DNA of 32,000 bases from Candidatus Lokiarchaeum ossiferum (GCA_025839675.1 CP104013.1:4230001-4262000); one strand, 5' to 3'; counted from the stretch's first letter, positions 8,053 through 19,434 are shown. Numbers and translations: made by a program. Notes: generated by a model not told the origin, from the sequence alone.

Positions 8053-10821
8053 TTAGGACTTTTTTTTGGCCATAATTAATATTACAACAATTAATCCTCC
8101 GATACCTCCAATAATTCCGAGTTGGGTGTTCGTATCTGTCGGTTGTAAATAGGTGATCCAATTGTTGGGAGAATCTCCCTCTGAAGTCGTTTCACTGGTA
8201 CCCTCGCTAGTACTCCTGCTAGCATCCTCACTAGTAGTTGTATTCAGAAACTCAATTGTGATCTTTACTATTGTGTGTAGTCCATTCCCGTATTGATCCA
8301 CTACTGAGATTTTTATCCAATAGAAGCTCTTTGTTAATTCGGTAATATTTTGGATGATTCCTTCATCATTAATTACAAATTCTGAAGTTGCATTTATCGA
8401 ATAAGTAATATTAGACAAATCTGTTGCTATAACTTGGATGTTTAAGGCATTCCCTTCCGTTAAAATTTGGTCTGAAGGGGGTTGATTCCAAGTGGGGGAA
8501 GTTGTGTCTCGGACAGAGAATGACAAATTATGATTCATTTCATTTCCTAGGGTGTCATTAACCCTAATTTCAAGAGGATAGGTTCCAATCGGAAGGAGAC
8601 CAACTGTTGTTAAATTCCCTGTTTCAGAGTTGATGTAAAAATGGATTGTATCGTTAATGGTATAACAATCAATCCCCGAGGGATCCGTTGCATTGAGATC
8701 ATAATACCAGTCTTGACCAAATTCAATAAATTGATTAATAGGTAGAGGGTTCCATGTGGGGGCTCCCGGTTCTTGGACCTGTATCATAATTTCAAAAAAG
8801 TTCTCATTACCTAAGGTGTCATTAACCATTATTTCAAGAGGATAGGTTCCAATTGGAAGGATGCCAACTGTTGTTAAATTGCCTGTTTCAGAGTCAATGT
8901 GAAAATGGGTTGTATCGTTAATGGTATAACAATCAATCCCCGAGGGATCTGTAGCATTGAGATCATAATACCAATCATAGCCGAATTCGATAAATTGATT
9001 GAGTGGTGCGGGATCCCATGTGGGGGCTCCCGGTTCTTGGAATGTTGTGAAATTCCAGGTGTTTGATATATTATAGGATTGTCCGTCACCAGTAACTGTA
9101 TACCATTCATAAGTAGTATCATTTAGTAGTTCACTCCACTCAACTGCTGCGACATCCCCACTTGAAACTCCAAACTGGGTTCCAATGAGTGAATCATCTT
9201 TTGCATTGAAAAATGATACAGTGAGTGTATCTGAATCTGGATCATCCACGTATACCATTAATTGTGCTGATGATGATATTTCTGTGCTATTAAATGCTGG
9301 GAATGGGTTTGTAGCGGTTGATTTTAAGGAACCCCAATAATCCAATTGCGGATCTCCATATAAATTAAATTCCATTTTATTCATCCAACTTTCTGCGCCC
9401 CAGAGATCTCCTCCATTGTATTTGGACTCGAAAAGAGCATCTCCCGCGGGAAGATTAAGTCGTAGTAAGTTATCCATGTATTTATAGCCTAATCCTGTAT
9501 TGTCGGAGACATAATCCCACATATCTGCTTCCCATTCTCCTACACCGTACCAGCTTACTTGGGCTGCGGACACCGTACTAATGGCTGCACCTTGTTTTAA
9601 TAATGCATATCCTAAATTATTCGAGTTTTCTGGGTTCCCATTATTACAAGAAGATTGATAAATGAATGCTGGGACATCTGTTTCGAGGTTTCCGACAGAA
9701 GAAGAACTTACAAAAGGTTCCCAATCCATTTCACTCGCATTATCTTCTGGAACCCCATCTCCATCGTCAGCAGACCAATATTTGCGATAAACTCCAGAAT
9801 CACTGCCATGACCCCACCATAAAACGGCCCCTTGATCATAGTTGAAATATGTTTCAAAATTTGAAGCGTTTAAATTGTTTGTATAATGAAATGCACTTGG
9901 GAGGACAGGATCCAATCCGGCTCCTTCATACAACACGGTATCATTCATACCTAATCCTGCTAACACATTTGTATAGAGTTCTTCTGGTAGATTTAATCCG
10001 TCTGTTCTCTCATATCCTTGATTATCTTCATTTTCATAATTGGAAATTGCCATCGGTAACAGGATGTTGTTTTTTCCCTCGTAAGTTTGGTTGTGATGGG
10101 ATCGAATTCGGAATAAAATTTCATCCAGTGTAGAGTAATCCTCATCATAAACGGGAATACGTCCTGCAAAAACTTCTGTTTGAAAATCTACCTCAGTATC
10201 TTCATATTCGCCGTAAAATCCATCTGAATCGGAATCCCAATTTCCAGATAGGTCAGCATAATAGTAGTCTGTGAAAGTAAATTCATCGGAACCTGTTCCC
10301 GAACGTGGCCAGACTTTTAACATGGGTACATCCCCTCCATCATCTGGATCGCCAATCAACAGCACATATTCTATATTTTTAGGTGTTTGTTGGTTTTTCA
10401 ACCATGTACGGATGGCGTGAGCGCGATCTTGACCAAAAAAATATCCATAATCGTCTTCTGTAATAACTTCTACATTGAACCCTAAATATTGTTTATATTT
10501 TACAAAATCTTGCAATTCCGCACTATTTGTTTCAATCGCATTGGTGGTCACGATAATATACGAGGTATTTACATCCTCCGTTTGGTGGGGGGGAGCGTTA
10601 ACTTGAGGTGTTTGATCTATTTTTCTATGTGAATATAGTTGCATATTGTTTAGAATTACGGCTTTCAGCGATTCATCAACAATTAGGTCTTTGATTTGAA
10701 GGGTTTCTTCCGTATCGTCTGTAATTTTAGATGTACTTCCCTGAAGAAGCCCGCATAGGAATAGGAAGATCAATATTTTCTTAAGATGACCCTTCCTTTG
10801 AAATTCCTTACTTTTTTTCAT
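8053..10821 (-). CDS. Secreted clan-CD cysteine peptidase (C25 gingipain-like) with tandem Ig/cadherin-like domains, Ser/Thr-rich stalk and C-terminal TM anchor
   Basis: The 922-aa ORF has an N-terminal signal-like segment (KKILIFLFLCGLLQG). Its C25-like propeptide/catalytic layout includes YIIVTTN..LQDFVKYKQYLGFNVEV, YVLLIGDPD..VPM, and a His-Cys dyad context (WWGHGS and IYQSSCNNG). Two near-identical 88-aa domains and one diverged copy follow. Then comes TSEDASRSTSEGTSETTSEGDS and the anchor LGIIGGIGGLIVVILIMAKKKS. Confidence 0.8.
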   Translation of the reverse strand: MKKSKEFQRKGHLKKILIFLFLCGLLQGSTSKITDDTEETLQIKDLIVDESLKAVILNNMQLYSHRKIDQTPQVNAPPHQTEDVNTSYIIVTTNAIETNSAELQDFVKYKQYLGFNVEVITEDDYGYFFGQDRAHAIRTWLKNQQTPKNIEYVLLIGDPDDGGDVPMLKVWPRSGTGSDEFTFTDYYYADLSGNWDSDSDGFYGEYEDTEVDFQTEVFAGRIPVYDEDYSTLDEILFRIRSHHNQTYEGKNNILLPMAISNYENEDNQGYERTDGLNLPEELYTNVLAGLGMNDTVLYEGAGLDPVLPSAFHYTNNLNASNFETYFNYDQGAVLWWGHGSDSGVYRKYWSADDGDGVPEDNASEMDWEPFVSSSSVGNLETDVPAFIYQSSCNNGNPENSNNLGYALLKQGAAISTVSAAQVSWYGVGEWEADMWDYVSDNTGLGYKYMDNLLRLNLPAGDALFESKYNGGDLWGAESWMNKMEFNLYGDPQLDYWGSLKSTATNPFPAFNSTEISSSAQLMVYVDDPDSDTLTVSFFNAKDDSLIGTQFGVSSGDVAAVEWSELLNDTTYEWYTVTGDGQSYNISNTWNFTTFQEPGAPTWDPAPLNQFIEFGYDWYYDLNATDPSGIDCYTINDTTHFHIDSETGNLTTVGILPIGTYPLEIMVNDTLGNENFFEIMIQVQEPGAPTWNPLPINQFIEFGQDWYYDLNATDPSGIDCYTINDTIHFYINSETGNLTTVGLLPIGTYPLEIRVNDTLGNEMNHNLSFSVRDTTSPTWNQPPSDQILTEGNALNIQVIATDLSNITYSINATSEFVINDEGIIQNITELTKSFYWIKISVVDQYGNGLHTIVKITIEFLNTTTSEDASRSTSEGTSETTSEGDSPNNWITYLQPTDTNTQLGIIGGIGGLIVVILIMAKKKS
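8512..9039. repeat. Tandem 264-bp direct repeat (2 near-identical copies) encoding 88-aa beta-sandwich-type domains of the C25 protein; a third diverged copy lies at about 8250-8511
   Basis: The string ccatgtgggggctcccggttcttgg recurs at 8752-8776 and 9016-9040, a period of 264. The encoded units are QEPGAPTW[DN]P.P[LI]NQFIEFG.DWYYDLNATDPSGIDCYTINDT.HF.I.SETGNLTTVG.LPIGTYPLEI.VNDTLGNE. Confidence 0.85.
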
Positions 10822-12474: not shown

Positions 12475-13728
12475 ATGGTAAAGAAGAAATATGTTTTCAA
12501 GATTCTGGTGGCTGGCCAAGGTGGAGTAGGAAAAACTACTCTCTTAAATCGTGCCGTGACGGGTAAATTTGTTCAGAACACAGCTATGACCATCGGCGTC
12601 GAGTTTCACTTATTGAATTTTACACTTGGCAATGAAGGATCAGATGACTCCCTCAACACGACGCTTCAACTTTGGGATTTTGGTGGCCAGGAGCGATTTC
12701 GCTTCATGTTGGATTCATACGTGGCTGGTGCACGTGGTGCCCTCTTATTATATGATTTAACCCGATTACGAACTCTAGATGGACTAGAAGAATGGGTGAA
12801 TATTGTGCGAAAACACGATAAAAATTTACCTATTTTGTTTGTCGGAACCAAATTGGATAGGGTTGAAGATATCACGGTCGCAGATGATTATGCCCACGAA
12901 TTCTTGGAACCCTTACAAATGTTTGGACATATGAAGATTTCCAGTAAAGATGGAACTGGTGTAAAGGATGCTTTCAAAGCCATCTCTCGCAAAATTTTAG
13001 AAATGAATGGAGTGCCATTACCTGCTGAAGATTTAAGCGGTGTAGTTACTCCTGCTCCTGGAACAAATTTACCTGGTGGAGATCAAATAACTCCTTCGAC
13101 TCCAAGTCCAGCCCCTTTCAGTGCACCTTCACCCCCTAAATCGGAGAACCCTGCGCCTTTTAGTGCACCAAAACCTGTTGAGCCAACTCCTGCACCTTTC
13201 AGTGCACCTTCGACTCCAAGTCCAGCGCCTTTCAGCGCACCTGTTGTTCCTAAATCAGAGGGTTCTGCACCTTTCAGTGCACCTTCGACTCCAAGTCCAG
13301 CACCTTTCAGCGCACCTAGTGCTCCTAAATCAGAGAGCCCTGCGCCTTTTAGTGCTCCGAAACCTGTTGAGCCAACTCCTGCACCTTTCAGTGCACCTTC
13401 GACACCAAGTCCAGCACCTTTCAGCGCACCTAGTGCTCCTAAATCAGAAAGCCCTGCGCCTTTTAGTGCCCCAAAACCCGTTGAGCCAACTCCTGCACCT
13501 TCAATTCCAAGTCCAGCGCCTTTCAGCGCACCTAGTGCTCCTAAACCAGAGAACTCTGCACCTTTTAGTGCCCCAAAACCTGTTGAGCCAACTCCTTTTA
13601 CTGCTCCAAAACCCGCTGATCCTTCACCCTTTAGTTTTTCTCAACCTACTGAAGAAGAAAAGAAGAAAGAAGCAGAACGGAAGAAAAAGGAAGAAGATGA
13701 ACGCCTTAATAGCTTTTTCTCTGTATAG
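12475..13728 (+). CDS. Rab/Ras-like small GTPase with long C-terminal APFSAP proline-rich repeat tail
   Basis: The 417-aa ORF has G1 GQGGVGKT, G2 TIGVEF, G3 WDFGGQERF, G4 GTKLD and G5 SSK within residues 1-177. Residues ~206-391 hold 12 exact APFSAP units plus degenerate copies. The protein ends with a charged helix and NSFFSV, and it has no C-terminal Cys. Confidence 0.9.
   Translation: MVKKKYVFKILVAGQGGVGKTTLLNRAVTGKFVQNTAMTIGVEFHLLNFTLGNEGSDDSLNTTLQLWDFGGQERFRFMLDSYVAGARGALLLYDLTRLRTLDGLEEWVNIVRKHDKNLPILFVGTKLDRVEDITVADDYAHEFLEPLQMFGHMKISSKDGTGVKDAFKAISRKILEMNGVPLPAEDLSGVVTPAPGTNLPGGDQITPSTPSPAPFSAPSPPKSENPAPFSAPKPVEPTPAPFSAPSTPSPAPFSAPVVPKSEGSAPFSAPSTPSPAPFSAPSAPKSESPAPFSAPKPVEPTPAPFSAPSTPSPAPFSAPSAPKSESPAPFSAPKPVEPTPAPSIPSPAPFSAPSAPKPENSAPFSAPKPVEPTPFTAPKPADPSPFSFSQPTEEEKKKEAERKKKEEDERLNSFFSV
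13090..13647. repeat. Intragenic tandem repeat array (33-42-bp APFSAP units organised in 114-bp higher-order repeats), locally GC-enriched
   Basis: The string gcacctttcagtgcaccttcgac[t/a]ccaagtcc starts at 13267 and at 13381, a period of 114. A third copy starts at 13495 and carries a 12-nt deletion. Earlier partial copies begin at about 13105. Confidence 0.9.
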
Positions 13729-13739
13729 AAGGGTCTCTG

Positions 13740-14156
13740 GTGGTCATTTACCTTTTTTTAGATGCTAATTTTATCTTAATTCCCGCTCAGTTCAAAGTTG
13801 ATATATATTCTGAATTCGAGCGCTTAATTCCGAAACCTTGGGAAATTATATTAGTGTCAGCTATATTTTCTGAAATCGAATATAAAATTACTCGGTTCTC
13901 TCAAAAAACAAAATTGAAACGACAATATTTAATGGCCCGTCAATTACTTACGCGACAATCTTATCGCCTAATAAAGAAAGAACGCACATCTGATCAAATA
14001 GTTGATGATTTGCTGTTAGAAGTGGCCCTTGAATTCCAAGAACTTGGGGGTGAAGTTTATCTCTGTACGAATGATAAAGAATTACGGGAAAAATGTCATC
14101 AACAAGAAATAAAAACTGTTTTCTTGCGTCAAGAAAAATTTTTAGATGTTGAATAA
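13740..14156 (+). CDS. PIN-domain ribonuclease, Fcf1/Utp24-like (COG1412 type)
   Basis: The 138-aa ORF has VIYLFLDANFILIPAQFKVDIYSEFERL at its N-terminus and VYLCTNDKELREK near its C-terminus. Both match the archaeal Fcf1-type PIN pattern (D-x-N-F...T-N-D-x-x-L). The GTG start lies 12 nt after the GTPase stop. Confidence 0.7.
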   Translation: MVIYLFLDANFILIPAQFKVDIYSEFERLIPKPWEIILVSAIFSEIEYKITRFSQKTKLKRQYLMARQLLTRQSYRLIKKERTSDQIVDDLLLEVALEFQELGGEVYLCTNDKELREKCHQQEIKTVFLRQEKFLDVE

Positions 14157-14212: not shown

Positions 14213-16165
14213 TTATAATTTCTGAATTTCAGTAAATAGTCTTTCAGCTGTGCTATTTAATTCTTCAGCAGCAGCACTCATTTCTTCAAGCGTTGAAGCC
14301 ATTTCTTCAGTTGAGGATGACAATTCTTCTGCAGTACCCGAGCTTTGTTCGATCACAACATTGATTTTTTCAACGCTATTAACAATTTCATTAATATCCC
14401 CATCTTGAGATGATACTGAATCAATTGTTTGCTTAATTCCTTCATTTGTTTGATTTATTACATTAAACAAAGCATCTAATTGAACTTTGGTTCCATTTAA
14501 AGCCACATCCCCTTTTTCAATAGAGTTCACCGTGTCATTTGTTGCAGAGACTGCATCCCCTACTTCAACTTGGATTGCTTTGATTAAGTCGTTAATCTGA
14601 TCCGCGGCTTGTTTGGAGTCTTCTGCTAACTTTCTGACCTGTTCTGCAACAACTGCAAATCCTTTGCCTGCATCACCTGCTCGAGCTGCTTCGATTGCAG
14701 CATTTAACGCAAGTAAATTCGTTTCTGTTGCTATTCCAGCAATAGCATCAACAATTTTATTGATCTCTTTACTTTTTATTTCAAGGGATCCCATTGTTTT
14801 TGCTACTTTATCTGCTCCTTTAGTTATTTCAGTGATTTGAGTGACCAAGTCCTCGGTAAGATTTTTTCCCTTTTGTGCCATAGCTTGACCTTGGGAACCA
14901 ACTTCCGCAAGATCTGCAGAATTTTTTACAATTTCTTGACTGACTCCTTGAACTTTAAGGACTGCATTAGAAATTTGATTGACAGATTGTGTTTGATGTT
15001 GAGCACCTTTAGCAACTTCCTGTGTTCCTCCTGTTACTTCTTGAACAGATAGATTTATTTGATTACTGGATTGAGCAATTTGATTTGCCATACTTGAAAC
15101 CTCTTCTGCAATTTTTGCGACCTCTTTAATTAAATTCTTAATATTGGTCACATCAACTATCGTTCCAATTGCTCCCAAATTTTTACCAGAAGAATCAATT
15201 AAAGGTTTAACTGTGATTTGAACAATAATATGTTCATTCCGACCACTTTTTAATTCAAATTCAACATCTTTCGCTTCCCCATTGTGTTGAAGTTGACTTA
15301 GAAAATCTTCCCCCTTTCTTCCTTCCTTGAAAATCGAATTAATAGACTTCCCAATGTAGGTATCTTTCGAAAATTGGGTAAAATCTAACATTGATTGACC
15401 AACATTTTTAATAGTATAATCTGAATCTGTAATTATTATTGGTGAAGATGTCCCGTTTACAATGGTTGTATTCATTTCAGATTGTTCACTCACTTCAACA
15501 AGTATTGTTTCCATGCCTAACGCCGAATTCTGAGTTAATTTTGAACTTTGAATGTTAACTACAATGATGGATGCAATAATAGCTATCGTTGAAATTATCG
15601 CTACCCAAAAAATGATAGTATTAATTAGAATTAATTGGGGAGTTGAAACATCTTCAACATATCGTTCTATACCTTTGAGTACTTCAGTGATTGATTCCAT
15701 GTGCACATCTAACTCACCATAGGGAACCAAGAATTCTGCTAAAGTTGAATCATTTTCTGCTACCGTATAGCATACTAATACTTGAGATTCAAATTCGTCA
15801 AATTCTGTCTTACTTTCAACTACTAATTCCAAAATATCGTTTGGCATGTTCAATAACAAGTAACTATCAAACAAATTCGCTGCATCTGCAATAAATGAAT
15901 TGATTTCTTCCTTCAATGCGATTCTATTATCAGTATCCAGAAAATAATCAAAAGATATTTCATATGCATTTAGTAAACTGATTTGAATCTCCATCGAGTG
16001 GTCTGCAATTTCAACCTCATTATCTATGAGTTTTGTATTTTGGGCTTGAATTATTATCATAAAGGTGATATTTGAGACCCCTAATATTACGAGTAAGAAA
16101 AGAGTATTCCGTAACCTTTTCACGGCTTTATTGATTGTTTCAAGATTTTTATTTTCATTTGCCAT
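14213..16165 (-). CDS. Methyl-accepting chemotaxis protein (two TM helices, helical periplasmic-type sensor, cytoplasmic PAS, MA signalling domain)
   Basis: The signalling hairpin core is canonical: [36 protein letters not shown]. The TM helices are [18 protein letters not shown] and [20 protein letters not shown]. There is also a PAS-like segment ([16 protein letters not shown]...IGTIVDVT). I prefer the ATG at 16165, which has AGAGGA 8 nt upstream, over the TTG at 16201. Confidence 0.9.
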
Positions 16166-16508
16166 ATTTTTTTCCTCTAAGTTCTTTTCATTCGATTTCA
16201 AACTATTTCAATTGAATTGATTGTAAGGGTTTTGCATCATTTCATATATTTTTGGAAGGGTTACACCCAAAATTACATTTATATTGAATTTAAAGCCCAA
16301 AATCGATTTAATCTGAAATAAAAATTATATTAGGTCTTCCAGTCTAATGAACCTCTTATATGTAAATTCTGAGAAATATTTGTAAATAGAAATCCACTTT
16401 TTTCAAAAATGATGTTTTTAATAGGATTGTGAAGTGTCTAAGAATTAATACAATCCATGACGAAGAGAAATATTTTTCTTGGCTAAAAATGAAGTTTAAA
16501 AAAAAGGT

Positions 16509-17082: not shown

Positions 17083-19434
17083 TTAGATCCATTTTTCACA
17101 TTTTTCTTTCAATTGTTGCAAGGTGAATGGTTTAACAAGATAGTCGCAAAAACCATAATCTTTATGTTGGGCAAGAATAGGATCTGTCGAATATCCACTG
17201 AATACAATCACTTTAAGTTCTGGATAGATTTCATGAACTTGTTGAACCGCAATTTTACCTCCAATACCTCCAGGAATTGTGAGATCCATAAAAACTAGAT
17301 CAAATTCTTTCCCAATTGCATGATTTTGGTTTAAAATCCCAATAATTTCCGCACCATCATAGCAAGATTCCATATCATAACCGAATTTGCTAAATACTCG
17401 CTGTAAGAATTTGTGTATCTTGGGATCGTCATCAAGTACTAAAATGCGGCCGTTAATTTTTTTGGAAATTGAGGGACTTGTTGATATTATCTTCTTATCT
17501 TTTGTTATAGGAAGGTATATGTCAAAAATAGTTCCATAATTTTTTTCCGAGCGAAATGTAATGTGTCCAGCATGTTTCTTTATGATTGAATAACTCATAG
17601 TAAGACCTAAACCATTGCCTTCGGGCTTGGTTGTAAAGTAAGGGTTGAAAATTTTGTGCTGGTATTCCTTCGGGATCCCAATTCCGTGATCTTGAATTTG
17701 AATTTTAATGTATTCTCCTTTCTTTAAGGGAATCAGTGATTTTGCCGATATATGTTCCTTTTTCACCGTTATGTTTATAGTTCCTCCTTTCGGCATGGAC
17801 TGTCTGGCATTAATTATTAGATTATTGAAAACTTGATTCATCTGTCCGAAATCAAATTCTGTGGTAGGTAAGTTAGATTGAAAATCAAACACACATTTGC
17901 AATTTGATCCTCTGAGCACAAAATTAGCAGAATCACGAATTAATTGTTCAATAGATTCGAGTTTTAAGATTGGTGCCCCTCCTTTAGAAAAAGTAAGAAG
18001 CTGTTTTGCTAGATCTCGGGCATGTAAGGTGGCGGATTCTAAATCATGAAAGATTTCTTTTTGATCAGGCGTGAAATTCGTGTTTTCAATTTGTAGCAAA
18101 TCTATGTTGCCAAGAATTGAAACCAATATATTATTGAAGTCATGGGCTAGTCCTCCAGCGAGTAAACCAATGGATTCGATTCTTTGTTGGCGAAATCGCT
18201 CTTCAGTAATCATCTTTCGATAACCGATATCACGGGCAATAACTAATATTCCAGAAAATTTATTTTCACGATAAATTAACCGTGACATAACTTCAACAGA
18301 TATGGTACCACCATTTTTCTTTTTTAGATCCAATTCATAAAGAGTTCTGTCTTGTTTTTTTTCTTGTTTGGCTTGGATATTTTGCTTAACTAATGAATGG
18401 AAATCTTCAACAATAAATTCAAAAGCAGGATGATTGATTACCTCCTCTTCTGTGAAACCTAACAATTCTGTGACAACGGGATTGATTTTTTGCATTAAAA
18501 TATTTGAATCAACTAGAAATATCATATCTCGGGAGTTTTCAACAATCTCTCGATAAGCAAGTTCTTGTTTTTGAGCTTCTTTTTCGATTTTGCGTTGAGC
18601 TGTGATATCTTGTAAAAAAGTAAAATCCTCTTTCCCAATGGAGATATTTTGAAAAATCATAGTTTTTTTTTCCCCATTTTTGCATGTAATAATTCGTTCA
18701 TGAGCGCCATATGGATCATATCCTGGCTGTCGCGTTTCAAGGAGAATTTGATTGCGATATTCAATATCTGGATATACTTGTAACGACCATGCTCTATTAT
18801 CTGGAAAATCTTCAATTGTGTATCCTAAATCTTGAGTAAATATGGGATTAACATATTTAAATTTCCCCTTCTCATCAGTAACAACGATGGGGAATGGAAA
18901 AAATTCGGCTATTTCTTGAAATCGTTCTTTAGTTTTTTTGAGATAATCATCTGAATGATATTTATCTGAAGCATCTTCGCAAATAGTTATGGTTAATTGG
19001 TCTGTAATGGGGATAGATTGAAAAAAGAAATGGAGAATTTGACCAGATTTCCCAGTGAAAAAATTAAAATGTGGTGTAGTGAGTCCATTTTCAGTTTTTT
19101 TCAATTTTAGTTTCAATTTCTCCCGTTTTTGTTCGTTAGGATATGCTCTGCGTTCCCAATCTGCTCTGGTTGCAATATCTTGTAGATTATATCCCGTTTT
19201 TTCTTCAAAAAGGGAATTTACATATAAATTATTATCTTGAATATCCGAAAGAACAATAGGAAATGGAAACTTGTCCAAAATTAGCTTCAAATCTGAAATA
19301 TCAAAAATAAAATTCTTTTCTTCATTATTTTGGTGCAAATTTTGCTTGATTTCTTTTAATAGTGATTTTTGCTCTTCTTTCTTTAGGGAACTGAGTAGTT
19401 GCAGTATGTGTTGTTTTTTATCCTCAAGTTCCAT
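17083..19434 (-). CDS. Hybrid sensor histidine kinase (multiple PAS domains, HisKA, HATPase_c, C-terminal receiver)
   Basis: The 783-aa ORF has the H-box LAGGLAHDFNNIL, the N-box NLIINARQSM and G-boxes DHGIGIP...GNGLGL. The receiver reads RILVLDDDPKI...DLVFMDLTIPGG...VIVFSGYS...KPF. Several PAS-like modules lie upstream (for example FPIVLSD, FPIVVTDEKG and RDMIFLVD). Confidence 0.9.
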   Translation of the reverse strand: MELEDKKQHILQLLSSLKKEEQKSLLKEIKQNLHQNNEEKNFIFDISDLKLILDKFPFPIVLSDIQDNNLYVNSLFEEKTGYNLQDIATRADWERRAYPNEQKREKLKLKLKKTENGLTTPHFNFFTGKSGQILHFFFQSIPITDQLTITICEDASDKYHSDDYLKKTKERFQEIAEFFPFPIVVTDEKGKFKYVNPIFTQDLGYTIEDFPDNRAWSLQVYPDIEYRNQILLETRQPGYDPYGAHERIITCKNGEKKTMIFQNISIGKEDFTFLQDITAQRKIEKEAQKQELAYREIVENSRDMIFLVDSNILMQKINPVVTELLGFTEEEVINHPAFEFIVEDFHSLVKQNIQAKQEKKQDRTLYELDLKKKNGGTISVEVMSRLIYRENKFSGILVIARDIGYRKMITEERFRQQRIESIGLLAGGLAHDFNNILVSILGNIDLLQIENTNFTPDQKEIFHDLESATLHARDLAKQLLTFSKGGAPILKLESIEQLIRDSANFVLRGSNCKCVFDFQSNLPTTEFDFGQMNQVFNNLIINARQSMPKGGTINITVKKEHISAKSLIPLKKGEYIKIQIQDHGIGIPKEYQHKIFNPYFTTKPEGNGLGLTMSYSIIKKHAGHITFRSEKNYGTIFDIYLPITKDKKIISTSPSISKKINGRILVLDDDPKIHKFLQRVFSKFGYDMESCYDGAEIIGILNQNHAIGKEFDLVFMDLTIPGGIGGKIAVQQVHEIYPELKVIVFSGYSTDPILAQHKDYGFCDYLVKPFTLQQLKEKCEKWI

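What the first reader, a model, noticed from the sequence alone, without database searches (positions are those of the whole stretch)
12475..13728. Rab/Ras-like small GTPase fused to a 12x APFSAP proline-rich tail, with no prenylation cysteine
Seen in sequence: residues 1-177 carry all five G-boxes in Rab-like form (GQGGVGKT, TIGVEF, WDFGGQERF, TKLD, SSK). Residues ~206-391 consist of 12 exact APFSAP hexapeptides plus 3 degenerate copies. These are separated by three alternating spacers (STPSP, SAPKSESP, KPVEPTP). A charged helix (EEEKKKEAERKKKEEDER) and a hydrophobic end (NSFFSV) follow. There is no Cys near the C-terminus, so a eukaryote-style CAAX/CC prenyl anchor is impossible. Three spacers generate exact P-S-A-P tetrapeptides. 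Established knowledge: expanded families of eukaryote-like small GTPases are a hallmark of Asgard genomes. Eukaryotic Rabs use a flexible hypervariable C-terminal linker for membrane targeting. Inference: the tail is an extended, multivalent short-linear-motif array, with one Phe every 11-14 residues in a polyproline-like context. It could tether the G-domain or recruit a partner such as a proline- or aromatic-binding module. I do not know of a described GTPase tail of this type.
Basis: partly seen in the sequence, partly recalled or inferred. Interest (0 to 1): 0.7.

Follow-up and report, generated by a model that had tools for sequence, protein, structure and literature searches.

The report
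Rab-like GTPase with tether-and-dock tail
A Rab-like molecular switch from the cultured Asgard archaeon Lokiarchaeum ossiferum carries a long, floppy, proline-rich repeat tail that ends in a small, strictly conserved peptide, which probably serves as a lipid-free way of tethering the switch to a partner or membrane, something published work says archaeal Rab-like proteins lack.

Summary
ORF 12475-13728 encodes a 417-aa protein (NEF87_003621, Ca. Lokiarchaeum ossiferum). It has a Rab-type G-domain (Pfam Ras E=1e-32), 12 exact APFSAP repeats and no cysteine. The tail is real: it is found in two independent assemblies, which differ only by in-frame repeat-unit indels.

The tail belongs to one monophyletic Lokiarchaeum/Promethearchaeum/Harpocratesius clade. 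All 72 other Asgard loci examined encode a tail-less G-domain. Within the clade the repeat sequence, period and copy number change freely, and only a Pro-hydrophobic-x-x-Pro pattern persists. The constant parts are a K/E cluster and a terminal [LF]xx[FY][FY] peptide. The last 27 residues are 27/27 identical between two species at synonymous saturation. APFSAP is under purifying selection within the genus (pN=0, pS=0.55). PSAP is not conserved.

The gene is co-transcribed with an Fcf1-like PIN nuclease, and this pairing holds across Asgard.

Best reading: a disordered spacer plus a terminal docking peptide. This works like the Rab hypervariable tail plus anchor, or the FtsZ linker plus C-terminal peptide. 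The partner is unknown. It is a new variant of a known kind, of moderate to high interest.

The parts
12475..13728 (+). Complete CDS of the tailed Rab-like GTPase (417 aa plus TAG stop); NEF87_003621 / UYP47336.1
   Evidence: ORF list and translation; exact identity to P0001
12475..13008 (+). Rab-type G-domain, residues 1-178, with G1 GQGGVGKT, G2 TIGVEF, G3 WDFGGQ, G4 TKLD and G5 SSK
   Evidence: Pfam Ras E=1.2e-32; PDB best hits are Rab11/14/43/Ypt1; Foldseek top 50 are all Rabs, TM 0.75-0.81; 97.8% identical to P0002, with dN/dS 0.017
13009..13089 (+). Non-repetitive junction, residues 179-205 (GVPLPAEDLSGVVTPAPGTNLPGGDQI). The NGVxLPxE start is conserved across the clade, and the tail-less sister protein L009 stops just after it
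   Evidence: Invariant N178, V180 and P183 in alignment A1; L009 ends ...RNGIEVPED
13090..13647 (+). Pro-rich tandem-repeat array, residues 206-391: 12 exact APFSAP cores plus degenerate copies. It is organised as a 38-aa super-repeat (STPSP-core, xxPKxExx-core, KPVEPTP-core). It is predicted to be disordered
   Evidence: Core pN=0 / pS=0.55 against spacer pN=0.24 / pS=0.33. AF2 pLDDT 36-57 with no secondary structure. In-frame unit indels between two assemblies
13648..13725 (+). Conserved C-terminal module, residues 392-417: charged segment TEEEKKKEAERKKKEEDER followed by the terminal peptide LNSFFSV
   Evidence: AF2 helix 393-415 at pLDDT 74-83. The last 30 aa are 100% identical to P0002, and the last 27 codons are 27/27 identical at pS=0.75
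13705..13719 (+). Terminal hydrophobic motif L411-N-S-F-F415, matching the family consensus [LF]-x-x-[FY]-[FY] placed 1-6 residues from the C-terminus
   Evidence: 32 of 40 tailed sequences carry it; the exceptions are truncated or end in KKKKTFF or KKKKPPFFG. In 0.9 Mb of Asgard DNA, the motif combined with the K/E context occurs only on this orthogroup
13740..14156 (+). Downstream operon partner: a 138-aa PIN_9 (archaeal Fcf1/Utp24-like, COG1412) protein. Its GTG start lies 11 nt after the GTPase stop
   Evidence: Pfam PIN_9 E=4.6e-14. A profile hits PDB 5YZ4 Fcf1 at E=6e-6, plus Utp24. It is adjacent to the GTPase in almost all of the 80 Asgard loci. Junction sequence. PIN_9 definition from PMC5499597
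12186..12474 (.). A 289-bp AT-rich intergenic region between the divergent FAA-hydrolase gene and the GTPase. It is the presumed promoter region of the GTPase-PIN operon, which is an inference only
   Evidence: Sequence; neighbouring ORFs. No promoter test was done, because archaeal promoters are not covered by the scanning tool

Best explanation
The gene encodes a GTP-binding switch of the Rab type. Across Asgard archaea its closest relatives (56-74% identical G-domains) are short, tail-less proteins of about 173 aa. Their genes are translationally coupled to an Fcf1-like PIN nuclease gene.

In one clade (Lokiarchaeum, Promethearchaeum/MK-D1, Harpocratesius and relatives) the protein acquired a C-terminal 'tether-and-dock' extension with two parts.
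1. A long disordered spacer rich in proline. It is built from tandem repeats that turn over quickly. Sequence, period and copy number all change, and units are gained and lost even between strains. The repeats keep a hydrophobic residue embedded between prolines (P-Phi-x-x-P).
2. A strictly conserved terminal module: a K/E-rich charged segment followed by [LF]xx[FY][FY] a few residues from the C-terminus.

I infer that the terminal peptide is the docking element. Its three hydrophobic side chains would plug into a partner protein or a membrane interface. The spacer then holds the G-domain on a leash with a contour length of tens of nanometres (about 215 residues, 65-75 nm fully extended). This works like the eukaryotic Rab hypervariable region plus prenyl anchor, or like the FtsZ C-terminal linker plus conserved C-terminal peptide, but without lipid.

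Within the genus Lokiarchaeum the APFSAP cores are themselves under selection. They probably add weak multivalent contacts or set the stiffness of the leash.

Shown here: the architecture, its phylogenetic distribution, the selection pattern and the operon. Inferred: docking, tethering and the identity of the partner.
For: - G-domain: Rab-type by HMM, by sequence and by predicted fold. The catalytic Gln and all G-boxes are invariant in 28 orthologues.
- Tail restricted to one clade: 9 of 81 loci have C-extensions of 92-332 aa, and all 9 share 81-89% G-domain identity. The other 72 loci have extensions of at most 6 aa. The tailed set is monophyletic in an NJ tree, with tail-less L009 as its sister.
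- Array hypervariable, terminal module constant: between L. ossiferum and P0002, the G-domain is 97.8% identical, the array 64.6% and the last 30 aa 100%. The last 27 codons are 27/27 identical at pS=0.75, and the G-domain has dN/dS 0.017. The motif [LF]xx[FY][FY] is present in 32 of 40 sequences. In 0.9 Mb sampled it occurs with its K/E context only in this orthogroup, against a bare-motif background of 6 in 995 ORFs.
- Disorder plus a terminal helix in AF2.
- Selection on the cores: pN=0, pS=0.55 over 66 copy pairs, with all 5 variable core sites at third codon positions. The 8-aa spacer gives pN=0.24.
- P-Phi-x-x-P pattern: 63% observed against 30% in shuffles, across about 6-7 independent repeat types.
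- Repeat-unit indels between two assemblies of one species are all in frame.
- The same 'G-domain, Pro-rich repeats, terminal module' layout recurs with other terminal modules in other Asgard GTPases: a Zn-ribbon in P0036-42 and P0196, and a folded domain in P0167. This supports a linker role for the array.
- Archaeal-type membranes are permissive to amphipathic-helix adsorption, and Asgard Arf-like GTPases use an N-terminal helix to bind membranes.
Against: - No partner has been identified, and no binding or localisation data exist.
- The terminal segment is not a classical cationic amphipathic anchor. Its net charge is about 0 to -2, and its hydrophobic moment is no higher than that of shuffled sequences.
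- In the MK-D1 subgroup the charged segment contains prolines (KKKPKKDPEED), so a continuous helix is not conserved.
- A small short-tailed subgroup (P0005, P0006, P0017) lacks the LxxFF motif, although several of these come from contigs of 1-1.5 kb.
- Strong selection on the APFSAP cores means the array is more than a passive spacer in this genus.
- Tail-less orthologues evidently function without any tail, so the tail adds a function rather than being essential.
- The tree is only a neighbour-joining tree on about 180 positions.
- Expression of the protein could not be verified.
Confidence: 0.55

Rival explanations
1. The APFSAP array is itself the functional element: a multivalent array of short linear motifs that recruits several copies of a partner carrying a proline- or aromatic-binding module. 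The C-terminal end is secondary.
For: - The APFSAP cores show pN=0 at pS=0.55, while the adjacent 8-aa spacers change at the protein level.
- APFSAP remains the dominant core in the second L. ossiferum assembly (12 copies) and in the nearest species (7 copies plus variants).
- A P-Phi-x-x-P pattern is enriched in 28 of 36 tails.
- Aromatic residues are regularly spaced, at a median of 10-14 residues.
Against: - The core sequence is not conserved between genera. The aromatic residue is replaced by Thr-Ile or Val in the MK-D1 subgroup.
- Copy number ranges from about 4 to more than 25.
- No Asgard domain known to bind such motifs was identified. Loki profilins reportedly do not bind polyproline.
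- PSAP is not conserved.
- Similar Pro-rich PxPhiP repeats serve as plain linkers to Zn-ribbon or folded domains in other Asgard GTPases.
- This model is not mutually exclusive with the best explanation.
Confidence: 0.25
2. The terminal helix is a membrane-targeting sequence of the MinD/FtsA type. L, F and F insert into the lipid interface and the lysines contact head groups, so the protein is a peripheral membrane GTPase on a long leash.
For: - AF2 predicts a C-terminal helix 393-415 at pLDDT 74-83.
- The i, i+3, i+4 spacing puts L, F and F on one helical face (visible directly in the sequence).
- A K-rich cluster lies upstream in all members.
- Archaeal-like diphytanyl membranes adsorb amphipathic helices readily, and Asgard Arf-like proteins bind membranes through such a helix.
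- From memory, the B. subtilis MinD targeting sequence ends ...KIKSFFGVRS. I recalled this and did not test it.
Against: - Net charge of the last 11 residues is -3 to +1, against +3 to +4 for the MinD sequences.
- The hydrophobic moment is not above shuffled controls in 7 of 8 family members.
- Acidic residues immediately precede the motif (EEDERL, PEEDLY).
- There are only 3-4 hydrophobic residues.
Confidence: 0.2
3. The terminal peptide is a hub-binding motif of a known archaeal class. One option is a Q-less PIP-box (Qxx[LIM]xx[FY][FY]) that binds PCNA. The other is a mimic of the ribosomal-stalk aP1 C-terminus (charged hinge plus LxxLF), which binds translational GTPases. Either would tie the GTPase to nucleic-acid or ribosome transactions, together with its PIN-nuclease operon partner.
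For: - The pattern L-x-x-[FY]-[FY] sits 1-6 residues from the C-terminus after a flexible linker. [quoted passage not shown]
- The operon partner is an Fcf1/Utp24-like nuclease.
- The pairing of the GTPase with this nuclease is conserved across Asgard.
Against: - The defining Gln of the PIP box is absent in all members.
- The motif class is degenerate, with a bare-motif background of about 0.6% of ORFs.
- No precedent for a Rab-like GTPase on PCNA or on the ribosomal stalk turned up in my literature searches.
- Tail-less orthologues keep the PIN pairing without any such peptide, so the PIN link does not depend on it.
Confidence: 0.1
4. The array is an FG-repeat-like cohesive or condensate-forming domain. 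Regularly spaced Phe 'stickers' in a polar, disordered spacer would let the GTPase partition into, or nucleate, a phase.
For: - Phe occurs every 11-14 residues in a net-neutral disordered array.
- Orthologue P0003 has four literal PFG units (KPFGLPK) alternating with PFSAP and PFTVP.
- The only recurrent PFSAP..PFSAP hits in metagenomes are eukaryote-like FG-nucleoporin-type ORFs in which PFSAP alternates with PFGAP.
Against: - There are no FG dipeptides in the window's tail.
- At 34% Pro the array is atypical for FG domains.
- Aromatic residues are nearly absent from the MK-D1 subgroup arrays.
- The resemblance to nucleoporins is compositional, not homologous.
Confidence: 0.05
5. The tail is functionless low-complexity drift, or an assembly or frame artefact.
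For: - The array is hypervariable and gains or loses units within a species.
- A tail-only HMMER search finds nothing.
- A shadow ORF exists in another frame of the repeat.
Against: - Two independent assemblies agree.
- The tail architecture is conserved in 40 sequences from at least 9 species-level genomes.
- The frame runs into a terminal peptide that is 27/27 identical at synonymous saturation.
- Core pN=0.
- All indels are multiples of 3 nt.
Confidence: 0.02

Closest known systems
Eukaryotic Rab GTPases (Rab11, Rab1/Ypt1, Rab4, Rab43)
   Same: The G-domain is the same by sequence and predicted fold, at 30-35% identity and TM 0.75-0.81. RabF-like segments are present: IGVEF, LQLW, RFRFML, YVAGA and LLYDLT. 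The catalytic Gln is present. The overall logic is also shared: a globular switch, a flexible hypervariable C-terminal region, and a terminal targeting element.
   Different: There is no Cys, so geranylgeranylation and the REP/GDI cycle are impossible. The tail is 5-10 times longer than a Rab hypervariable region, and it is tandemly repetitive and Pro-rich. The terminal element is a peptide, [LF]xx[FY][FY]. G4 is TKxD rather than NKxD. The gene is operonic with a PIN nuclease.
Described Asgard Rab-like GTPases (Thor-Rab, PDB 7EZB; the Lokiarchaeum Rab-like set of Surkont & Pereira-Leal 2016)
   Same: Both are Rab-like G-domains from Asgard archaea without C-terminal cysteines (7EZB E=5e-24).
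   Different: The published proteins are characterised as lacking an extended C-terminal region and any targeting signal. This family has a 60-390-aa extension ending in a conserved peptide. Thor-Rab is a different paralogue: it is no closer to this protein than human Rabs are.
FtsZ C-terminal linker plus conserved C-terminal peptide (established knowledge, not tested here)
   Same: The layout is the same: a GTPase core, then an intrinsically disordered linker of variable length and sequence that is often Pro-rich, then a short conserved C-terminal peptide that docks onto membrane-anchoring partners. The conservation pattern is also the same: core and tip conserved, linker free.
   Different: The GTPase fold is unrelated (tubulin/FtsZ versus Ras-like). 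FtsZ polymerises. The peptide sequence is different. No partner is known here.
Asgard Arf-like GTPases (ArfR) with an N-terminal amphipathic helix
   Same: Both are Asgard small GTPases that reach their targets without lipid modification. The ArfR helix is required for membrane binding in yeast cells, and it carries Phe and Leu residues.
   Different: The ArfR helix is N-terminal, packs against the G-domain and is released on GTP binding. Here the element is C-terminal, separated from the G-domain by about 215 disordered residues, and not demonstrably amphipathic.
Other Asgard Rab-like GTPases with Pro-rich repeat linkers (P0036-P0042, P0196, P0167, P0184)
   Same: They share an N-terminal Rab-like G-domain, Pro-rich PxPhiP tandem repeats, often a K/E-rich segment, and a small terminal module.
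   Different: Their terminal modules are a CxxC...CxxC zinc ribbon or a folded domain, not the LxxFF peptide. Their G-domains are only 33-43% identical to this one. These proteins are not in the PIN operon orthogroup.
PIP-box clients of PCNA and MinD/FtsA membrane-targeting sequences (established knowledge)
   Same: Both have a hydrophobic triad with i, i+3, i+4 spacing at the extreme C-terminus, after a flexible linker.
   Different: The PIP-defining Gln is absent. The net positive charge typical of MinD/FtsA targeting sequences is absent. Neither kind of binding was testable here.

Membership tests
Ras superfamily small GTPase | G1-G5 nucleotide-binding motifs and a Ras-family HMM match | tested here: met
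   GQGGVGKT, TIGVEF, WDFGGQ, TKLD and SSK. Pfam Ras E=1.2e-32, above the gathering score (113 vs 21.6 bits), and TIGR00231 E=3e-21.
Ras superfamily small GTPase | The alpha/beta G-domain fold | tested here: met
   AF2 model with a 6-strand/5-helix G-domain. There are 1569 PDB matches at E<=0.001, and the top 50 are all Rabs at TM 0.62-0.81 normalised to the target. The model's G-domain pLDDT is only 46-88, because the alignment is shallow.
Rab family (eukaryotic definition) | Closest similarity to Rabs, and presence of the RabF1-F5 segments | tested here: inconclusive
   The best PDB hits are Rab11B, Rab14, Rab43 and Ypt1. In the printed alignment to Rab11B, IGVEF, QLWD and LLYDL match well, while RFRFML and YVAGA match only partly. 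The RabF consensus was recalled from memory, and no formal RabF scoring was run.
Rab family (eukaryotic definition) | C-terminal prenylatable cysteine motif (CC, CXC, CCXX) | tested here: not met
   There is no Cys in the protein. No orthologue has a C-terminal Cys motif, apart from one Y-to-C substitution inside the motif of P0018.
Rab family (eukaryotic definition) | Dependence on REP/GDI and Rab GGTase | not testable with these tools
   Only 32 kb of the genome is available. The literature reports no REP or GGTase homologues in Asgard.
P(T/S)AP late-domain (UEV-binding) motif carriers | A conserved P[TS]AP tetrapeptide | tested here: not met
   There are 3 copies in the window, 2 in the second L. 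ossiferum assembly and 0 in the closest species P0002. Only 2 of 32 orthologues have any.
PIP-box (PCNA-interacting peptide) | Q-x-x-[LIM]-x-x-[FY]-[FY] | tested here: not met
   L-x-x-[FY]-[FY] is present in 32 of 40 sequences. The position corresponding to Q is D, E, K, R, S or Y and is never Q. PCNA binding is not testable here.
MinD/FtsA-type C-terminal membrane-targeting sequence | A C-terminal amphipathic helix with net positive charge | tested here: inconclusive
   A helix is predicted. However, the net charge of the last 11 residues is -3 to +1, and the hydrophobic moment exceeds shuffles in only 1 of 8 members.
FG-repeat domain | Multiple FG dipeptides in a disordered, low-complexity region | tested here: not met
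   There are no FG dipeptides in the window's tail and 4 in orthologue P0003.
PIN_9 / archaeal Fcf1-like nuclease (the operon partner, 13740-14156) | A PIN_9 HMM match and conserved acidic active-site residues | tested here: met
   PF18477 E=4.6e-14, above the cut-off. E45, D89 and D112 are invariant, and D8 is conserved in at least 90% of 20 orthologues. A profile hits PDB Fcf1 5YZ4 at E=6e-6, AF0591 1O4W, and yeast Utp24. Nuclease activity was not tested.

The most novel reading that the evidence does not exclude
This clade evolved, independently of eukaryotes, a working equivalent of the Rab hypervariable tail plus anchor. The conserved K/E-[LF]xx[FY][FY] peptide reversibly docks the switch to the cell membrane, to protrusions or to a cytoskeletal or scaffold partner. 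The repeat array sets the reach of the switch and its copy number tunes that reach. If so, this would be the first archaeal Rab-like GTPase with an identifiable localisation signal. It would be directly testable in two cultured Asgard species, and it would contradict the published view that such extensions arose only during eukaryogenesis. A bolder variant is that the F-spaced array behaves like a proto-FG cohesive domain.
Probability: 0.3. Interest if true: 0.8.

Novelty: new variant of a known kind. Interest (0 to 1): 0.6.

Why it matters
How Asgard small GTPases find their targets without lipid anchors is an open question in work on eukaryogenesis. Two studies (Surkont & Pereira-Leal 2016; Tran et al. 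2024) conclude that archaeal Rab-like proteins lack a C-terminal extension and any targeting signal, and that the extension arose in proto-eukaryotes.

This family is a concrete counter-example. It is present in all three cultured or closed-genome Loki lineages: L. ossiferum, P. syntrophicum MK-D1 and H. repetitus. Its tail has a clear division of labour, with a free-running repeat spacer and a strictly conserved terminal peptide.

That gives experimenters a short, defined peptide to mutate, pull down with, or localise. Tail-less relatives elsewhere in Asgard provide a natural comparison.

The conserved pairing with an Fcf1-like PIN nuclease also warns that this 'Rab-like' switch may not act in membrane traffic at all. 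It may instead act with an RNA-processing enzyme. I found no description of this pairing in my literature searches.

Tried and rejected
1. Tail-only protein search against 5.8 billion proteins. Nothing scored E<=0.001, not even the protein itself. HMMER's composition correction suppresses this query, so the result is uninformative, not negative.
2. DNA pattern scan of JGI metagenomes for PFSAP..PFSAP. It returned 19 contigs and none was Asgard-like. The recurrent hits are high-GC, eukaryote-like FG-nucleoporin-type ORFs. So no other APFSAP carrier was found, but the pattern was restricted to the CCT codon for Pro.
3. Expression check in the published L. ossiferum proteome. The table uses in-house GNAMCCOK identifiers that cannot be mapped to NEF87 tags or accessions, so this was a dead end.
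4. Hydrophobic-moment and charge analysis of the C-terminus. It does not discriminate between the models and weakens the classical membrane-anchor reading.
5. NCBIfam gave only the generic small_GTP domain for the GTPase and nothing for the PIN protein. Single-sequence PDB search with the PIN protein found nothing. A 20-sequence profile was needed.
6. Literature searches for Asgard + small GTPase + PIN domain, for prenylation and for proline-rich GTPase tails found no description of this protein, tail or operon.
7. PSAP/UEV and LIR/AIM readings of the tail were considered and rejected, because the motifs are not conserved (inspection). The HbYX proteasome motif was rejected because the Tyr/Phe is not penultimate.
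8. The shadow ORF 13121-13768 in another frame of the repeat was rejected as a by-product of stop-poor, GC-rich repeat DNA.
9. tRNA scan of the window: none found.
Full report
WHAT IS THERE. Window 12475-13728 (+) is one uninterrupted ORF of 417 codons plus a TAG stop. Its product is identical to hypothetical protein NEF87_003621 (UYP47336.1) of Candidatus Lokiarchaeum ossiferum, on a 6.04-Mb contig.
- 12 exact APFSAP hexapeptides;
- the three spacer classes (STPSP, an 8-residue xxPKxExx class, and KPVEPTP);
- three PSAP tetrapeptides;
- a K/E-rich stretch and the NSFFSV end;
- no cysteine anywhere.

At the DNA level the array has nested periods of 33, 75, 114 and 189 nt at 88-90% match. A PFSAP..PFSAP pattern matches 10 times, against 0 in shuffles. 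GC content rises to 0.45 over the array, against about 0.33-0.36 nearby, as expected from Pro and Ala codons.

THE G-DOMAIN. Residues 9-175 match Pfam Ras (E=1.2e-32) and Roc. The closest solved structures by sequence are Rab11B, Rab14, Rab43 and Ypt1. The crystallised 'Thorarchaeota Rab' 7EZB is no closer than these. An AlphaFold2 model built on 28 orthologues gives a G-domain whose top 50 PDB neighbours are all Rabs, with TM 0.62-0.81 normalised to the target. All G-box residues and the switch-II Gln are invariant in the orthologue alignment. So it is a Rab-like switch, but it fails the defining Rab feature of a prenylatable C-terminus.

THE TAIL IS REAL. A second, independent L. ossiferum assembly (6.27 Mb, XEO78833.1) encodes a 425-aa version that is 96% identical. 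The differences are:
- one extra STPSPAPFSAP unit (+11 aa);
- loss of one SAP (-3 aa), which removes one PSAP;
- three substitutions.

All of these changes keep the frame. The +2-frame ORF 13121-13768 is a shadow of the stop-poor repeat.

THE TAIL IS A CLADE-SPECIFIC ADDITION. A protein search returned about 32 close orthologues at 58-84% overall identity. All have the same layout but different repeats. A scan of one genome per species returned 80 loci. I extracted the ORFs from these loci.
- Nine loci have C-terminal extensions of 92-332 aa and G-domains 81-89% identical to the window. These are the window plus L001-L008, and they include P. syntrophicum MK-D1, Ca. Harpocratesius repetitus and several Promethearchaeum MAGs.
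- The other 72 loci are labelled Thor-, Hermod-, Hod- and Odinarchaeota or generic Promethearchaeota. Their G-domains are 56-74% identical and have at most 6 residues beyond the G-domain.

In a neighbour-joining tree of 134 G-domains, the nine tailed proteins form an exclusive clade, and the tail-less L009 is their sister. An exhaustive search of 1.84 billion representatives found the tailed clade collapsing to two 50%-identity representatives.

WHAT IS CONSERVED IN THE TAIL. The repeat unit differs between lineages:
- APFSAP with three spacers in Lokiarchaeum;
- more than 25 copies of EPKPFAPPTT in Harpocratesius (512 aa);
- nine copies of PPTIPTPVSE in MK-D1 (317 aa);
- PFTPTP, PPFIPPT, RPFIPP and KPFGLPK in the others.

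Tail length in the 32 database orthologues is 60-237 aa, with a median of about 114. What persists is a pattern. Hydrophobic residues lie with Pro at -1/-2 and at +2/+3 in 63% of cases, against 30% in shuffled tails. This is significant in 28 of 36 proteins, but repeats inflate that count, so the real number of independent observations is about 6-7 repeat types.

The end of the tail, by contrast, is constant. It consists of an acidic/basic K/E cluster followed by [LF]-x-x-[FY]-[FY], placed 1-6 residues from the C-terminus: LNSFF, LSSFY, LYSYF, LFNYF, LSNFY, LSDFF. The motif is present in 32 of 40 sequences. The exceptions are contig-truncated, or end in KKKKTFF or KKKKPPFFG, or belong to a small short-tailed subgroup. 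In 0.9 Mb of Asgard DNA (1003 ORFs), the motif in its K/E context occurs only on this orthogroup, and the bare motif has a background of 6 in 995.

SELECTION. I compared L. ossiferum with its nearest relative (P0002, locus L100). The G-domain is 97.8% identical, the array 64.6% and the last 30 residues 100%. At the codon level the G-domain has pS=0.62, pN=0.022 and dN/dS 0.017. The last 27 codons are 27/27 identical in protein at pS=0.75. The terminal module is therefore constrained at least as strongly as the enzyme core.

Within the window's array, the 12 APFSAP cores differ only at third codon positions: five variable sites, pS=0.55 and pN=0 over 66 pairs. The 8-residue spacer class shows pN=0.24 at pS=0.33. 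Because the cores were copied as blocks, the number of independent events is small (at least 8 synonymous, 0 non-synonymous). Still, about 74% of random changes in these codons would alter the protein, so the core peptide is under purifying selection in this genus. APFSAP is also the dominant core in the second assembly (12 copies) and in P0002 (7 copies plus APFSTP, TPFSAP and APYSAP).

STRUCTURE PREDICTION. AF2 gives no secondary structure and pLDDT 36-57 for residues 200-390. It predicts a helix at 393-415 with pLDDT 74-83. The disorder is an inference from low confidence and composition. From the end of helix alpha-5 to the terminal helix there are about 215 residues, giving a contour length of 65-75 nm if fully extended. 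The real mean extension would be much shorter.

GENOMIC CONTEXT. Eleven nucleotides after the stop codon, a GTG opens a 138-aa PIN_9 protein. PIN_9 is defined in the literature as 'Archaea-specific Fcf1-like domains', COG1412, function unknown. A 20-sequence profile hits archaeal Fcf1 (PDB 5YZ4, E=6e-6), AF0591 (1O4W) and yeast Utp24. Three acidic active-site residues are invariant and the fourth is conserved in at least 90% of sequences.

This gene follows the GTPase in all complete tailed loci. It also follows the GTPase in the large majority of the tail-less loci. There the GTPase stop usually overlaps the PIN start by 4 nt, and a second tail-less Rab-like GTPase gene usually follows, giving the order G1-PIN-G2. 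In the tailed clade and its immediate tail-less sisters the second GTPase is absent from the locus. The FAA-hydrolase gene upstream is also syntenic within the clade. I found no paper that mentions this GTPase-PIN pairing.

COMPARISON WITH WHAT IS PUBLISHED. Surkont & Pereira-Leal (2016) wrote that archaeal Rab-like sequences miss most of the hypervariable region. They also found no polybasic region or other membrane-association signal. Tran et al. (2024) concluded that Thor and MK-D1 Rabs 'lack the C-terminal extension' and that the extension arose during eukaryogenesis. Their survey of 74 MK-D1 GTPases classified folded domains only. The MK-D1 orthologue found here (L003, 317 aa) has a 140-residue extension, so this family is an undescribed exception.

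It is not an isolated oddity, though. Other Asgard Rab-like proteins combine a G-domain with Pro-rich PxPhiP repeats and a different terminal module: a zinc ribbon in P0036-42 and P0196, and a folded domain in P0167. Many others carry coiled-coil, LRR or TPR extensions.

MECHANISM. The pattern of a conserved core, a free-running disordered linker and a conserved tip is the signature of a tether with a docking peptide. FtsZ (C-terminal linker plus C-terminal peptide) and eukaryotic Rabs (hypervariable domain plus prenyl group) are examples, both from established knowledge. I therefore favour a tether-and-dock model in which the [LF]xx[FY][FY] peptide is the docking element.

What it docks to is open:
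- A membrane-inserting amphipathic helix is plausible in principle. Asgard Arf-like proteins use one, and archaeal-type lipids favour it. But the segment is not cationic, and its hydrophobic moment is unremarkable.
- The motif equals the C-terminal half of a PIP box and resembles archaeal stalk-protein tips. Both resemblances are recalled from memory and were not tested.
It loses support from the lack of motif conservation between genera, from the non-conservation of PSAP, and from the reported failure of Loki profilins to bind polyproline.

LIMITS. No binding, localisation or expression data could be obtained. The proteome identifiers could not be mapped. The tail-only homology search was defeated by composition correction. 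The tree is a distance tree. Several orthologues come from short contigs. The AF2 alignment is shallow.

VERDICT. This is a new variant of a known kind: a Rab-like GTPase with a non-lipid, repeat-spaced, peptide-tipped tail, restricted to one clade and embedded in an operon with an Fcf1-like nuclease that holds across Asgard. Interest 0.6.

Noticed in passing
window 12475-14156; loci L013-L080 (e.g. L047 5995-7588): There is a three-gene cluster found in most of the Asgard loci examined: a tail-less Rab-like GTPase (~173 aa), an Fcf1-like PIN_9 nuclease (~147 aa, whose start overlaps the GTPase stop by 4 nt), and a second Rab-like GTPase (~171 aa). It occurs in most of the 72 tail-less loci, from genomes labelled Thor-, Hermod-, Hod- and Odinarchaeota. 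The tailed clade keeps GTPase-PIN but lacks the second GTPase at the locus. I found no paper mentioning this pairing.
   Followed up: partly
window 13121-13768 (+), a different frame from the GTPase: A 215-aa ORF (MHLHPLNRRTLRLLVHQNLL...) lies entirely within the repeat region in another reading frame. It looks like a shadow ORF produced by stop-poor, GC-rich repeat DNA, not a gene.
   Followed up: partly
P0048 vs window 13090-13647: Two L. ossiferum assemblies (6.04 and 6.27 Mb) differ in this gene by one whole repeat unit (+11 aa), a 3-aa deletion and 3 substitutions. This is repeat copy-number polymorphism within a species.
   Followed up: yes
P0036, P0039, P0040, P0042, P0196 (database proteins): A separate Loki GTPase family of 435-600 aa has a Rab-like G-domain, long Pro/Glu-rich repeats (e.g. 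EFEYSAPPVPEP, IDFAAPPVPEPAKTFEPEPE), a K/E-rich segment (ISKKDKKKLEKQKKKEEKE) and a C-terminal CxxC...CxxC zinc ribbon. The design logic is the same as here, with a different terminal module.
   Followed up: partly
P0050-P0053, P0067, P0093, P0126 (database proteins): These proteins have 3-6 tandem Rab-like G-domains in one chain (519-2322 aa) and are among the best-scoring relatives of this G-domain.
   Followed up: no
L083, L084, L090, L094, L097, L099 (JGI metagenome contigs, GC ~0.6): These contigs carry eukaryote-like ORFs of ~720 aa with classic FG-nucleoporin-type repeats (FSFGA, FTFGA, SPFGAPSSPFGAPSSPFSAPSS), in which PFSAP alternates with PFGAP. They were found only because they share the PFSAP DNA pattern, and they are unrelated to the Asgard protein.
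   Followed up: partly
window 12847-12858 (residues 125-128): The G4 box is TKLD rather than the canonical NKxD. Thr125 is invariant in all 28 aligned orthologues, and the tail-less L047 proteins also have it.
   Followed up: no
window 14213-16201 (-) and 17083-19434 (-): Immediately downstream lie a PAS-containing methyl-accepting chemotaxis-type protein (662 aa) and a hybrid PAS histidine kinase/response regulator (783 aa). The MCP is syntenic in the nearest relative (L100) but not in MK-D1.
   Followed up: partly
window 8053-10821 (-): A 922-aa ORF has only a sub-threshold Cadherin-domain hit (E=1.4e-4, below the gathering score). It may be a surface or adhesion protein.
   Followed up: no
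L003 7555-9726 (-): In MK-D1 the gene after the PIN gene encodes a 723-aa protein made of dozens of thrombospondin-type-3-like calcium-binding repeats (DxDxDGxxDxxE) with a C-terminal transmembrane segment.
   Followed up: no
L100 10665-11024 and L047 9277-9651: An eIF-1A gene lies within 2-4 kb of the GTPase-PIN pair in two distant lineages. It may be a remnant of a translation-related neighbourhood.
   Followed up: no
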